DNA of 64,000 nt, taken from Synechococcus sp. Lineage in GTDB: Bacteria; Cyanobacteriota; Cyanobacteriia; Thermostichales; PCC-7336. The stretch lies in assembly GCA_051439605.1 (NCBI GenBank), contig JBFRWN010000075.1, forward strand, positions 1-64,000, given 5' to 3'. Position 1 is the first letter of the stretch; each line of letters starts with the position of its first letter. Positions 1 through 19,988 of the stretch are shown here, piece after piece. Under the pieces are notes generated by a model. The model was not told the origin of the DNA, did no database searches, and saw only the letters and a list, made by a program, of their open reading frames with translations. The translations under genes and the position numbers were made by a program.

Positions 1-510
1 ATCTGACTAGGCTTTCCCTTTTCAACAATCAAATCAGCGAGATTCCCGAGGCGCTCGCCCAGCTGTCCAATCTGACTAGGCTTGACCTTTCCAACAATCA
101 AATCAGCGAGATTCCCGAGGCGCTCGCCCAGCTGTCCAATCTGACAGAGCTTTACCTTTCCAACAATCAAATCAGCGAGATACCCGAGGCGCTCGCCCAG
201 CTGTCCAATCTGACAACGCTTGTCCTTTCCGACAATCAAATCAGCGAGATTCCCGAGGCGCTCGCCCAGCTGTCCAATCTGACAGAGCTTTCCCTTTTCA
301 ACAATCAAATCAGCGAGATTCCCGAGGCGCTCGCCCAGCTGTCCAATCTGACAACGCTTGACCTTTCCAACAATCAAATCAACGAGATTCCCGAGGCGCT
401 CGCCCAGCTGTCCAATCTGACAGAGCTTTACCTTTACAACAATCAAATCAGCGAGATTCCCGAGGCGCTCGCCCAGCTGTCCAATCTGACAACGCTTGAC
501 CTTTCCAGAA
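1..510 (+). repeat. Tandem 69-bp coding repeat (LRR units), 7 full copies plus 1 partial, probably continuing left of the window
   Basis: Units start at 1, 70, 139, 208, 277, 346, 415 and 484. The core aatcaaatcagcgagattcccgaggcgctcgcccagctgtccaatctgac is nearly invariant. Confidence 0.98.
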
Positions 511-2822
511 ATCCTCTCAACCCGATTGTGCAAAGTGCCTATTCAGGCGGCATTAAAGAGCTTTTTGCCTATCTGAAGAGTTTGCAAAACCCTCAGGAGG
601 TTGAAACCATCCACGAAGCCAAACTGGTCTTAATTGGCGAAGGGGATGTGGGAAAAACCACGTTACTCAAAGCTCTAACAGGTAACGATCCTCAAGCGGG
701 GGAACAAACCACCCACGGCATCAGTATCGACATTCAGGCGCTCCGGTTGCCCCATCCCGACCAACCCGACACCCAACTCAAGTTCAACGCCTGGGACTTT
801 GGCGGACAAGAGGTGTATCGGGTCACCCACCAATTTTTCTTTAGCAAGCGTTCGGTTTATCTGCTGCTGTGGGAACCGCGTCGAGGGGTGCAGCAGTGTC
901 AGGTGGAAGACTGGCTCAACATGCTGCGCCTGCGGGTGGGCACAGAAGCCCGCGTGATTATCGTCTCCACCCACTGCAAAACAGGAGAGCGCATCGCCCG
1001 CATCGATAAACCCGTCCTCAAGCGCGACTACAGCGACATGATTGTCGACTTCCTCGAAGTCGATAGCCTGGTCGATGACCCCGACACGGGCGAAAAAGTC
1101 GGCATCGCCACCCTTAAACGAATGATTGCTGCCACTGCCAAAACCTTTGACCAAATGGGAGCCAAGCTCAACCGGGCCTGGTGTGCATCGCGGGACGAAC
1201 TGTTGGCTGTGGGCGAACCGCGCATTGCTTACGATGACTTTGCCACCGTTTGCCAGCGTTACGGCCTCAGCCCCATTGCCACCCGCACCCTAGCCGACCT
1301 GATGCACGACCTGGGCTACATCGTGTACTACGGCGACGATGACTCGTTGAAAGATGACGTCGTTCTGCAACCGGAATGGCTCACCAAAGCGATCGGCTTC
1401 GTCCTAGAAGATCGCACCACCCAGGAAATGGACGGCATGTTGCCCGACAGTCGCCTCAAAGACGTCTGGCTCAACCATCCCTTCACTAACGAACCTCGCT
1501 ACAGCCCAGAACTCTATCCCTTCTTCCTCCGTCTGATGGAAAAATACGACGTCTCCTACCGTTTGGAGGACGGCACGGGTAGCCTGGTCTCGCAGCACGT
1601 GCCCCAGGTGCGCCCTCTCTTGCCCTGGCTGCCAGAAGAAGAGCCCGAACCGAACCGCCGTCGCATTGCCATGGTCTGCGTCATGGAAGAATCACCGCCG
1701 GGGTTAATTCCCTGGATGATTGTGCGCACCCACGAGTACATCTATCAACGCCCCGAAAACGACGGTAAAACCCACCGACTGCACTGGCAAAAAGGCATGT
1801 TTTTGCGCAATAAAGGCCATGGTGAAGCCATGCTGGAACTGCGCGATCGGGAACTTCACCTCTATACCGAAGCCGTTTGGCCCGAATATTTCACCACCAT
1901 TTTGCAGCAAACGCTGCACACCCTGATTACCGATACCTGGCCCGGACTCAAAGACCGCTATTACTTTGCCGTTCCCTGTCCTACCCAACGCAACAATAGA
2001 GCCTGCATGGGTCGGTTTGAAATTAGCGCCCTGCGACAGTTTCTGGAAGAAGGGGATACTCACTACCGCTGTCAGTTTTGCCGCACCCGTCACGAAATTG
2101 TGGACTTACTCTACGGATTTGAAGACGAAACTACCCGCGAACAGCTCAGCCGTATTGAAACCAAAGTCGATCGCGGTTTTGCCGAAATCCAAGACAACTT
2201 AACCGAGTGGGACAGCCGCATTGCCAACTACACCATGGGCATCATGCGGGCCATTGCCAACGAAGCCAAAGCAGGCCCTCGCCTATTTACGCTGGAACCT
2301 GTAGACGGCAACTGGCGACGGCTCTTTGACAAACGCTATCGCCTGCATCTGTGGTGCGAAGCCGAAAATTGCCAGCACCGCGTTCATCAGGCCAACTTAG
2401 GCGTCTACGAGTTCGATGCCCCCCGCGACTGGGTGACCCAAGTTGCGCCCTACGCCAATTTGGTCTCGCGGGTTCTGAAAACCGTGCTGCCCCTCGCTGT
2501 TCCCGCCGCTAACCTTTACTTCGGCGAAACCATCATGGACGACTGGGCCATACAGCAGTCCCTGGATGCCATGAAAGAAGCCACGAGCACCTTGCTCGAC
2601 GGAGAATTGGCTAGCGCTGAAGCCGGTCGCTTCAAAGATGGTCTACTCAGCGAAGCCGAGCGATCGGGCATCTTGGCTCTACATGCCTTCCTGCGCAAAG
2701 AAGATCCCCAGCATCAGCGGTTAGGACTGAAGCGCATGCCAACCTACACAGGCGACTACCTCTGGCTTTGCGAAACACACTATCAAGCCGCCCAACCGAT
2801 CATCCCCGATCGCATTGAATAG
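3..2822 (+). CDS. LRR-Roc-COR (Roco family GTPase), 5' end outside window
   Basis: The frame is open from base 3 through 23-aa LRRs (LTxLxLxxNQISEIPEALAQLSN). It continues into a Roc P-loop (GEGDVGKTT), WDFGGQEVY, a COR region and C-terminal Cys/His motifs (CQFC, LWCE, WLCETH). The ORF-track start at 528 is internal. Confidence 0.93.
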   Translation: MTRLSLFNNQISEIPEALAQLSNLTRLDLSNNQISEIPEALAQLSNLTELYLSNNQISEIPEALAQLSNLTTLVLSDNQISEIPEALAQLSNLTELSLFNNQISEIPEALAQLSNLTTLDLSNNQINEIPEALAQLSNLTELYLYNNQISEIPEALAQLSNLTTLDLSRNPLNPIVQSAYSGGIKELFAYLKSLQNPQEVETIHEAKLVLIGEGDVGKTTLLKALTGNDPQAGEQTTHGISIDIQALRLPHPDQPDTQLKFNAWDFGGQEVYRVTHQFFFSKRSVYLLLWEPRRGVQQCQVEDWLNMLRLRVGTEARVIIVSTHCKTGERIARIDKPVLKRDYSDMIVDFLEVDSLVDDPDTGEKVGIATLKRMIAATAKTFDQMGAKLNRAWCASRDELLAVGEPRIAYDDFATVCQRYGLSPIATRTLADLMHDLGYIVYYGDDDSLKDDVVLQPEWLTKAIGFVLEDRTTQEMDGMLPDSRLKDVWLNHPFTNEPRYSPELYPFFLRLMEKYDVSYRLEDGTGSLVSQHVPQVRPLLPWLPEEEPEPNRRRIAMVCVMEESPPGLIPWMIVRTHEYIYQRPENDGKTHRLHWQKGMFLRNKGHGEAMLELRDRELHLYTEAVWPEYFTTILQQTLHTLITDTWPGLKDRYYFAVPCPTQRNNRACMGRFEISALRQFLEEGDTHYRCQFCRTRHEIVDLLYGFEDETTREQLSRIETKVDRGFAEIQDNLTEWDSRIANYTMGIMRAIANEAKAGPRLFTLEPVDGNWRRLFDKRYRLHLWCEAENCQHRVHQANLGVYEFDAPRDWVTQVAPYANLVSRVLKTVLPLAVPAANLYFGETIMDDWAIQQSLDAMKEATSTLLDGELASAEAGRFKDGLLSEAERSGILALHAFLRKEDPQHQRLGLKRMPTYTGDYLWLCETHYQAAQPIIPDRIE

Positions 2823-2856: not shown

Positions 2857-2884
2857 AAAAAAGGGAGCCCCGAAGAGGCTCCCT
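2857..2884 (-). terminator. Intrinsic terminator for pgk (lies between convergent genes)
   Basis: Stem agggagcc/ggctccct, with an A6 run on + that gives a U-tract on the minus strand. Confidence 0.75.
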
Positions 2885-2942: not shown

Positions 2943-4160
2943 CTAGGCATCAGCTAGAGCGGCAATGCCGGGCAGGGTCTTACCTTCTAGGAGTTCGAGG
3001 CTAGCACCACCGCCGGTGGAAATGTGGCTCATTTGGTCTGCGACACCGACTTTTTCAACAGCTGCTACAGAGTCACCACCACCAATGATGGTGACGGTGC
3101 CACCAGCGGTTAAACCGGCCAACGTGGTGGCGATCGCTTCGGTGCCCTTGGCAAATTTATCGAATTCGAAAACCCCCATGGGGCCATTCCAGATCACAGA
3201 ACCGCAGTCTGCCAGTGCAGCTTGGAAAGTCTTGATGGAATCGGGACCGATATCCAGACCCATCCAACCATCAGGAATGGCATCCACACTCACGGTCTGA
3301 GCATTAGCATCGGGGGCAAAGTTATCAGCCACAACCACGTCGGTGGGTAACAGCAGCTCTACACCACGCTCTTTTGCCTTAGCTTCCAGAGCCCTAGCCA
3401 GCTCCAGTTTGTCCTCTTCCACCAAAGACTTGCCGACGCTGAGGCCGCGAGCCTTGTAGAAGGTAAAAATCATGCCACCACCAACAAACAGCTTGTCCAC
3501 TTTCTCTAGCAAAGTTTCGATGACGCCGATTTTGCTGGAGACTTTGGAACCGCCAACAATCGCCACCAGAGGACGTTTGGGCGCTTCGATAGCCCCTTGC
3601 AGGAACTGCAGCTCCTTCTCGATCAAGTAGCCCGCTACAGAAGGGGAGAGGTATTCCGTTACGCCAGCGGTGGAAGCGTGGGCGCGGTGGGCGGTTCCGA
3701 ATGCATCGTTGACATAGAAGTCTGCGACGGAAGCCAGGGATTTGGCAAACTCGGGATCGTTTTTTTCTTCACCAGCGTGGAACCGAACGTTTTCCAGCAA
3801 AACTACATCGCCGTTGCTCATGGCATCAACGGTTGCTTTGACTTCATCGCCGATGCAGTCGCTGGGCTTCTTGACCTCTTGGCCTAGAACTTCGGAAAGA
3901 CGGGCTGCAACAGGTGTCAGGCGCATGCTTTCGTTCACCTGACCCTTGGGACGGCCGAAGTGGCTGGCTAAAATCACCTTTGTGCCTGCGCCAGTCAGGG
4001 CATTGATGGTGGGCAGTGCAGCACGGATACGGGTATCGTCGGTAATGTTGCCCGCATCATCTAAGGGAACGTTAAAATCTGCACGAACTAATACTTTTTT
4101 ACCTGCCAGGGTGCTTGCATCGGGGCCGTCTAAAAGTTTGGCCAGAGAAAGCTTAGACAT
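2943..4160 (-). CDS. pgk: Phosphoglycerate kinase
   Basis: [29 protein letters not shown] and STGGGASLE motifs. Confidence 0.98.
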
Positions 4161-19736: not shown

Positions 19737-19988
19737 ACCTCCCACAAGTGCTGGGAGCCCAGCTTTCGTTTATCTACGACCAGGATTCCCATTGAGAAAT
19801 TAATAATTTAAGCAAAGCATGAGGAAAATGTGAAGTCTAGGGGGGAATTCACCTAATTCAAGCACCTCCCACAAGTGTTGGGAGCCCAGCTTTCGTTTAT
19901 CTACAACCGAAATGCCCCAAGATCGTTCATTGTTTAAGCAAAGCATGATGAAAATGTGAAATCTAAGGGGGAATTCACCTCGTTCAAG
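19737..19988. repeat. Tandem direct repeat, 2 copies, 127-bp period, non-coding
   Basis: Copies begin at 19737 and 19864 (acctcccacaagtgYtgggagcccagctttcgtttatctac ... tttaagcaaagcatgaKgaaaatgtgaaRtctaRgggggaattcacct..ttcaag). Confidence 0.95.

What the first reader, a model, noticed from the sequence alone, without database searches (positions are those of the whole stretch)
1..510. Hypervariable, DNA-homogenised LRR array on a Roco GTPase: candidate diversifying receptor
Seen: eight 69-bp units are nearly identical even at synonymous sites, yet differ at the x positions of LxxLxLxxN. The variants are TRLSLFN, TRLDLSN, TELYLSN, TTLVLSD, TELSLFN, TTLDLSN, TELYLYN and TTLDLSR. Short alleles are reassorted between units; for example tcc-ctt-ttc follows both act-agg and aca-gag. 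Known: these positions form the concave ligand-binding beta-sheet of LRRs. High internal repeat identity with variable surface residues is the pattern of fungal NLR WD40/TPR arrays that diversify by repeat shuffling. Inference: this is a bacterial sensor (LRR input, Roc-COR switch, Cys/His-rich C-terminal output) whose specificity is re-programmed by recombination or gene conversion, possibly in defence or non-self recognition.
Basis: partly seen in the sequence, partly recalled or inferred. Interest (0 to 1): 0.8.

Follow-up and report, generated by a model that had tools for sequence, protein, structure and literature searches.

The report
Reshuffling LRR sensor on bacterial Roco
A cyanobacterial LRRK2-like GTPase carries a row of near-identical repeats that differ almost only at the residues on its presumed binding face and that are gained, lost and swapped between strains, a bacterial example of a receptor-diversifying pattern known from fungi and brown algae, attached to an output domain nobody has named.

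Summary
In detail: seven full 69-bp LRR units plus a capping unit head an LRR-Roc-COR gene. The array broke the assembly; the gene's start, with two more units, is on contig C87 (synteny in a congener agrees). Over nine units, 8 of 11 variable sites fall in x codons; pN there is 0.39 against pS 0.065 for the whole unit, and no tree fits without 4 extra steps, so alleles have been recombined. The pattern is family-wide: pN(x) exceeds pS in 29 of 31 relatives with conserved backbones. Coleofasciculus orthologues at one locus carry 2 to 14 units; two alleles 99.2% identical from Roc onward have 11 and 9 mostly different units, and one allele shares unit blocks with two others. No donor copy and no retroelement link was found, so diversification is intragenic. 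The class (AP-GTPase/COR counter-invader proteins with fast-evolving LRRs) was predicted by Kaur et al. 2021; this regime is known from fungal NLRs and brown-algal ROCOs; this scan noted it before on two other bacterial genomes and one eukaryote. New: DNA-level and strain-level evidence, and an unnamed C-terminal domain with no fold match. Ligand and defence role remain unshown.

The parts
3..485 (+). Seven complete 23-residue LRR units, DNA-homogenised, variable at residues 3, 5, 7, 8; the array continues upstream on contig C87 (L001:5691-5971: start codon, N-cap, two full units) with further units unassembled
   Evidence: synteny; depth
486..620 (+). Capping LRR unit and LRR-Roc linker
   Evidence: boundary from Pfam Roc start
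621..977 (+). Roc GTPase domain; P-loop at 636-662, further G motifs at 708-719, 792-809, 966-980
   Evidence: Pfam PF08477 E 5e-23; motif positions; G-motif labels recalled
1176..1592 (+). COR-A domain
   Evidence: Pfam PF16095 E 4.5e-27
1665..2114 (+). COR-B domain; its tail carries four cysteines (1977-2006, 2070-2081), invariant in 60 of 60 aligned relatives, a probable zinc site
   Evidence: Pfam PF25497 E 6.8e-18; model residues 2-57 align to the COR end of C. tepidum Roco 3dpt, Z 5.9, rmsd 1.9, 51 residues
2127..2822 (+). Unnamed C-terminal domain (aa 709-939): long coiled-coil-like helix, small sheet, long amphipathic helix, terminal hairpin; conserved C785, H792, C/H923, H926 (second probable zinc site); presumed output
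   Evidence: model pLDDT 88.3, pTM 0.80; conservation; no Pfam, PADLOC, PDB-sequence or fold match
2862..2884 (-). Terminator-like hairpin after the convergent pgk gene
   Evidence: 1 found, shuffles mean 0.4; weak
2943..4160 (-). Phosphoglycerate kinase, the downstream neighbour; marks the site that is empty in congener G003

Best explanation
A single-gene intracellular sensor of the LRR-Roc(AP-GTPase)-COR class whose LRR arm evolves by concerted evolution. Unequal exchange and conversion between its own units (and between alleles of different strains) keep the scaffold identical, change the number of units and make chimeric units; selection keeps amino-acid changes at the four residues of each unit that line the concave face. 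No special enzyme or donor cassette is needed. Shown: homogenisation, face-restricted excess of replacement changes, recombination, allele-to-allele change in number and order. Inferred from the solved C. tepidum Roco: a protein ligand in the concave face is incompatible with the closed state, so binding swings the LRR off COR-B, favours the GTP-bound open monomer and repositions the C-terminal domain. Inferred from the evolutionary signature and from the class: the ligand is a fast-changing foreign protein (phage or other invader) and the zinc-clamped C-terminal domain is the output, most likely acting by oligomerising or binding a partner, with growth arrest or death as the result.
For: Window: pN 0.39 at codons 3,5,7,8 with pS 0 there, pS 0.065 over the whole unit; 11 incompatible site pairs; best of all trees needs 15 steps against a minimum of 11; two synonymous sites are among the homoplastic ones (chance about 0.045 in a crude simulation). 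Backbone third positions 97% alike within the gene, 45-77% against units of the four closest orthologues, whose Roc-COR third positions are 56-65% alike. Family: with pairs chosen on backbone amino-acid identity, pN(x) 0.44 against pS 0.21, higher in 29 of 31 genes (of 96 examined); pN(x) above pN at exposed convex residues in 20 of 22 genes even when pairs are chosen against the hypothesis, 74 of 80 unselected. Six Coleofasciculus orthologues with shared flanks and 92-95% Roc-to-end nucleotide identity have 2 to 14 units. P0163 and P0167: 99.2% identical from Roc on, 11 and 9 units, sharing only the last three face motifs; P0177 shares five consecutive motifs with P0165 and three with P0169. 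Logan contigs show a unit with E3/Y5/F7 absent from the assembly. Kaur 2021 section 15 predicts the class as counter-invader; a Roc-COR-CHAT protease is the partner of the Runella gasdermin (passages); concave-face nanobody clashes with the closed state (PMC11052575 passages).
Against: No ligand, phenotype or expression data. 98 of 147 neighbouring ORFs scanned show no conserved partner and no defence island; here the gene lies between an iron-permease-like gene and pgk. Only 16 of 68 relatives with four or more units have mean unit identity of 75% or more, so homogenisation is episodic. Without pair selection pN(x) equals pS (0.56, 0.57; near saturation; 32 of 80 higher). Synonymous change within x codons is also raised (0.36), so part of the signal is old allele blocks retained rather than new selected mutations. 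Five pairs with 100% identical Roc-COR have the same arrays, though these arrays are not homogenised and may be one sample filed twice. Units two and four apart are most alike, so plain duplication of a two-unit block explains part of the pattern. Relatives are not independent, so the p-values overstate.
Confidence: 0.62

Rival explanations
1. Neutral amplification: a recent expansion of one or two units, with changes tolerated only at exposed strand positions. The array is a structural arm of a signalling GTPase and its variation has no function.
For: Recently amplified repeat arrays are common in LRR, TPR and propeller folds (PMC5074805 passage); new repeats evolve under relaxed selection (PMC5120217 passages); period-2 structure; unselected family pN(x) equals pS.
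Against: Relaxed selection cannot give pN six times pS or twice pS in 29 of 31 genes; equally exposed convex residues stay near fixed (pN 0.01 here); orthologues 99% alike elsewhere have different faces.
Confidence: 0.13
2. A diversifying receptor, but for kin or self versus non-self recognition between filaments, or for a partner or predator, rather than for phage.
For: Same evolutionary regime as fungal allorecognition NLRs (PMC4986451 passages); 77 distinct face motifs among 99 units in 12 close alleles; many carriers are filamentous Cyanobacteria and Chloroflexota by their record titles; no defence-island context.
Against: No linked polymorphic partner gene; the protein has no evident signal peptide or membrane anchor (N-terminus; highest 19-residue hydropathy of the C-terminal domain 1.3); also present in Methylomonas and Gallionella.
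Confidence: 0.18
3. A directed diversification system: a retroelement or silent cassettes rewrite the face codons, as in DGR targets or lamprey VLRs.
For: 9 of 11 variable sites include an A allele and none is C/T only; the genome has two complete-looking DGRs.
Against: Both templates match lectin-type (FGE-like) genes with A-specific mismatches and none matches the LRR unit; no further copy of the unit in the genome at E up to 1 except two short chance hits; no unexplained loose end at the array in run X1; family spectrum at x sites is purine-rich, not A-specific (A in 59, G in 57 of 82 biallelic sites).
Confidence: 0.04
4. Assembly artefact: collapsed or chimeric repeats from a mixed population create apparent reassortment.
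For: The array ends both contigs; depth suggests about 1.4 times more units than assembled; run X1 shows T where the assembly has A at 436.
Against: Allele combinations lie within 21 bases and are matched exactly by independent contigs; the same pattern is in isolate genomes such as PCC 7420.
Confidence: 0.03

Closest known systems
Prokaryotic AP-GTPase (Roc)-COR counter-invader proteins, Kaur, Iyer, Burroughs, Aravind 2021 (PMC8195603; section 15 read whole, supplement rows seen)
   Same: [quoted passage not shown]
   Different: They list that protein as LRR+AP-GTPase+COR with no effector named; the section gives no DNA-level homogenisation, dN/dS or allele comparison; paralogue expansion is typical there, here one copy per genome.
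Brown-algal LRR-ROCO candidate immune receptors, Zambounis 2012 (PMC3341825) and Teng 2024 (PMC11378527); passages seen
   Same: LRR-Roc-COR, repeat shuffling, positive selection on the concave face.
   Different: One exon per 24-residue repeat, shuffled through introns across a large gene family; here an intron-less 23-residue array in one bacterial gene.
Fungal NLRs with high internal conservation (het-d/e, nwd; PMC4986451 passages) and bacterial NLRs with conserved WD/TPR repeats (10.1101/2020.01.06.895854 passage)
   Same: Over 85% internal identity, repeat-number polymorphism, about four selected positions per unit on the binding face.
   Different: STAND ATPase switch and WD/ANK/TPR repeats at the C-terminus; exchange also between paralogues; here GTPase switch, N-terminal LRR, no paralogue donor.
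Chlorobium tepidum Roco (PDB 3dpt/3dpu; PMC11052575 passages) and the Runella Roc-COR-CHAT protease of a gasdermin system (10.1101/2021.06.07.447441 passages)
   Same: LRR-Roc-COR core; COR tail aligns structurally.
   Different: Different C-terminal domain; no gasdermin or other partner gene here.

Membership tests
Roco proteins | Roc domain followed by COR-A and COR-B | tested here: met
   Pfam PF08477, PF16095, PF25497 all above cut-off
Roco proteins | GTP binding, hydrolysis and nucleotide-dependent dimer-monomer cycle | not testable with these tools
   P-loop and G motifs present in sequence; activity not measured
AP-GTPase-COR counter-invader proteins (Kaur 2021) | N-terminal rapidly evolving LRRs | tested here: met
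AP-GTPase-COR counter-invader proteins (Kaur 2021) | Recognised effector or adaptor domain at the C-terminus (TIR, caspase, trypsin, GT4, FGS, EAD etc.) | tested here: inconclusive
   A conserved 230-residue domain fills the slot but matches no Pfam, PADLOC, PDB sequence or fold; the orthologue has no effector label in their table (supplementary file 13 not searched)
AP-GTPase-COR counter-invader proteins (Kaur 2021) | Activity against an invader | not testable with these tools
   Predicted, not shown, in the section read
High-internal-conservation (HiC) repeat receptors | Over 85% internal identity over at least 100 residues | tested here: met
   86% over 138 residues at shift 23, 89% over 115 at shift 46; criterion
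High-internal-conservation (HiC) repeat receptors | Diversifying selection at a few binding-face positions | tested here: met
   Counting method only; that residues 3, 5, 7, 8 face the concave side is established LRR geometry, recalled, not modelled here
High-internal-conservation (HiC) repeat receptors | Repeat-number polymorphism and shuffling among strains | tested here: met
   Met in Coleofasciculus orthologues; for this organism only one extra unit type in reads
NLR (STAND) receptors | NACHT or NB-ARC ATPase domain | tested here: not met
   No such Pfam hit among 18 families; the switch is Roc-COR
Diversity-generating retroelement target | Template repeat homologous to the variable region, mismatches at template adenines | tested here: not met
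   Both DGR templates in the genome match FGE-like genes only; no copy of the LRR unit elsewhere; draft genome, so absence is not absolute

The most novel reading that the evidence does not exclude
Bacteria with this subfamily run an anticipatory, VLR-like receptor repertoire from a single gene: units recombine fast enough that cells of one population or mat carry different binding faces, blocks of units move between strains, and recognition is wired through a LRRK2-type GTPase switch to a zinc-clamped death or arrest domain of undescribed fold. Hints: a unit type in reads that the assembly lacks, at 1.5 times single-copy depth; eight versions 92-94% alike in Roc-COR with different arrays in one metagenome; a mosaic allele.
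Probability: 0.2. Interest if true: 0.8.

Novelty: new variant of a known kind. Interest (0 to 1): 0.5.

Why it matters
The natural input and function of bacterial Roco proteins, the standard structural models for LRRK2, were not found stated in the passages read. A signature of diversifying selection on the concave LRR face, the same face where an activating nanobody binds C. tepidum Roco, points to a foreign protein as the trigger and makes that testable with allele swaps. The Coleofasciculus allele series is a ready natural experiment. The C-terminal domain (1565 clusters at 50% identity) is a candidate new effector. The homogenised scaffold is also a natural binder library.

Tried and rejected
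Donor copies: none; the 69-bp unit matches only C75 and the end of C87. DGR mechanism: rejected. C-terminal domain identity: Pfam 0 families for the window protein and only weak COR-B and zf-DNL hits in relatives; PADLOC none; PDB sequences nothing below E 0.038; ESM Atlas one hit at 0.78, itself a COR cluster, and none with COR clusters left out; Foldseek on PDB and viral models no match at E 0.001; the wide structural search returned only matches to the first helix, Z up to 5.9, so the globular part was barely tested and a new fold is not shown. A resemblance of the C-terminal end to plant TORNADO1 and algal ROCOs is recalled only; none of the 120 listed hits carried such a name, and it was not tested. 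Transmembrane helix: not supported (10 of 60 relatives above hydropathy 1.6). Same-species alleles: the metagenome scan gave none (best 88%) and the protein's cluster has one member. No RNA holder listed. Runs are contigs only, so read-level heterogeneity could not be measured. The first family test chose pairs on backbone third positions, which lowers pS; it was replaced, where five duplicate loci were dropped before counting. Neighbour scan had no control set and covered 98 of 147 ORFs. Literature searches listed no paper on DNA-level shuffling of bacterial Roco LRRs and none testing an LRR-Roc-COR protein against phage; the library lacks most subscription papers. No complex prediction was run.

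Full report
Observation. The window is the start of contig C75 of a 4.9 Mb, 143-contig genome. An open frame 3-2822 (939 aa, open at the 5' end) begins with seven complete 69-bp units and a capping unit. Pfam gives LRRs, Roc (aa 207-325), COR-A (392-530) and COR-B (555-704), and nothing after residue 704.

The rest of the gene. The unit matches only one other place, the end of contig C87, which holds a start codon, an N-cap, two full units and the start of a third. In congener G003 the gene upstream on C87 lies directly beside pgk, the gene downstream in the window. This supports joining C87 to C75 and shows the site empty in a relative. Run X1 matches 462-2700 exactly at depth 26.3; a backbone contig has depth 188.6, 7.2 times that, where the assembled units predict 5.2, so roughly 12 units is a rough estimate. 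X1 and X2 also hold a unit with E3, Y5, F7 that the assembly lacks; it may lie in the gap or be an allele, which contigs cannot tell.

Selection and recombination in this array. Nine full units are 92.7% alike; 8 of 11 variable sites lie in x codons (p 9e-5). At codons 3, 5, 7, 8 pN is 0.39 and pS 0; outside the x codons pN is 0.006 and pS 0.046; pS over the whole unit is 0.065. The leucine codons between the variable ones are almost fixed, which fits changes arising after homogenisation. Eleven site pairs are incompatible and the best of all trees needs 15 steps against 11; two synonymous sites are homoplastic (about 0.045 by a crude simulation). Backbone third positions are 97% alike within the gene but 45-77% alike to units of the four nearest orthologues: concerted evolution. 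Units two and four apart are the most alike, so duplication of a two-unit block contributed.

The family. 14 of 61 related genomes have a Roc-COR match; hits in the own genus are only 30-34% identical and the complete congener G002 has none with this query, while 77 loci in GTDB genomes of Cyanobacteria, Chloroflexota, Acidobacteriota and others reach 49-88% and 43 more come from metagenomes. Of 96 arrays examined (five duplicates dropped), 31 have at least three unit pairs with conserved backbones; in 29 of these pN at the face exceeds pS (means 0.44 and 0.21). Face pN exceeds pN at exposed convex residues in 74 of 80 genes unselected and 20 of 22 when pairs are chosen against the hypothesis. 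Against: only 16 of 68 arrays of four or more units are homogenised to 75%; unselected pN(x) equals pS near saturation; pS inside x codons is raised (0.36); kin are not independent.

Alleles. Six Coleofasciculus orthologues share flanks and 92-95% nucleotide identity from Roc to the end, yet carry 2 to 14 units (two of them lack the normal N-cap in frame). P0163 and P0167 are 99.2% identical from Roc on and have 11 and 9 units; only the last three face motifs are shared. P0177 (PCC 7420, 14 units) shares five consecutive motifs with P0165 and three with P0169. 77 of 99 face motifs in 12 alleles are distinct. Eight versions in one metagenome are 92-94% alike in Roc-COR with different arrays; whether they are paralogues or strains is unknown. 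Five pairs with identical Roc-COR have the same arrays, but these are not homogenised and may be duplicate filings. No second allele of the window's own species was found.

Mechanism of diversification. No donor copy exists in the draft. Nine of 11 variable sites include A, so a DGR was tested: the genome has two, each with an accessory-type ORF, a reverse transcriptase and a template showing A-specific mismatches to FGE-like genes, none matching the LRR; the family spectrum is not A-specific. Ordinary unequal exchange and conversion within the gene and between alleles, filtered by selection, is the simplest account (inference).

The C-terminus. Four invariant cysteines belong to the COR-B tail, which aligns with the COR end of C. 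tepidum Roco (Z 5.9, rmsd 1.9, 51 residues). The remaining 230 residues fold confidently (pLDDT 88) and keep C785 (61 of 61), H792 (52), C or H at 923 (61) and H926 (52), a probable zinc clamp (inference). The profile finds 1565 clusters; of 69 top hits over 800 residues, 68 have a P-loop and 61 LRR motifs, so the domain travels with LRR-Roc-COR. No library names it. Neighbours vary and show no partner or defence island (98 of 147 ORFs scanned, no control).

How it most likely works. In C. tepidum Roco the GTP state is an open monomer with the LRR swung away, and a nanobody in the concave face clashes with COR-B of the closed state (PMC11052575, passages). By analogy a foreign protein caught by the variable face opens the protein and frees the C-terminal domain. 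Ligand, GTPase cycle and output are inferred; a phage or invader ligand is my best reading (0.62), kin recognition (0.18) and neutral amplification (0.13) the main rivals.

Comparison with what is known. Kaur et al. 2021 (section 15 read; supplement rows, file 13 not searched) describe prokaryotic AP-GTPase-COR proteins with rapidly evolving LRRs and at least 24 effector types as predicted counter-invader systems and list the PCC 7420 orthologue without an effector. Shuffling with concave-face selection is described for brown-algal ROCOs (passages) and fungal NLRs (passages); high internal conservation was noted for bacterial NLR WD/TPR repeats (passage). A Roc-COR-CHAT protease accompanies the Runella gasdermin (passages). 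The DGR antigen-sensor paper does not mention LRR or GTPase in its main text. Eight searches listed no DNA-level study of bacterial Roco LRR arrays. Earlier notes of this scan report the same pattern on two other bacterial genomes and one eukaryote; I did not check their DNA.

Verdict. Real, well supported as a diversifying array, and a new variant of a known kind: known class, known evolutionary regime, with new strain-level evidence and an unnamed output domain. Interest 0.5.

Noticed in passing
L105 (G000:C88:31330-34971) and L106 (G000:C56:41212-44850): Two diversity-generating retroelements: FGE-like target gene, accessory-type ORF, reverse transcriptase, template with A-specific mismatches; the C56 template matches three nearby targets and the C88 template also matches a target on C70.
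   Followed up: partly
L114-L116, L118-L122 (metagenome Ga0247727) and L092: Eight Roco versions 92-94% alike in Roc-COR with different LRR arrays in one metagenome; paralogue family or strain alleles unresolved.
   Followed up: no
L003, L011, L012, L025, L026 and many loci: Roco genes often lie at contig ends, so homogenised arrays are probably under-counted in draft genomes.
   Followed up: no
L006, L009, L010, L017-L019, L022, L025: More distant cyanobacterial Roco genes (27-33% identity) show the same gene-specific homogenised scaffold with variable face residues; these were not in the counts.
   Followed up: partly
L072:2847-3128, L069, L031, L035: Some orthologues have the LRR arm or the gene split by a stop or frameshift, as expected of a fast-turnover gene or of assembly error.
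   Followed up: no
L039, L041, L053, L093; L029, L041, L042; L045, L079, L082: Ser/Thr kinase genes (4), Uma2 nucleases (3) and small GIY-YIG genes (3) recur next to the Roco gene among 98 neighbours scanned; no control.
   Followed up: no
window 19737-19988: A two-copy 126-bp tandem repeat, 83% matches.
   Followed up: no
window 2127-2819: The last hairpin motif of the C-terminal domain reminded me of plant TORNADO1 and algal ROCO C-termini; recalled only, untested.
   Followed up: no
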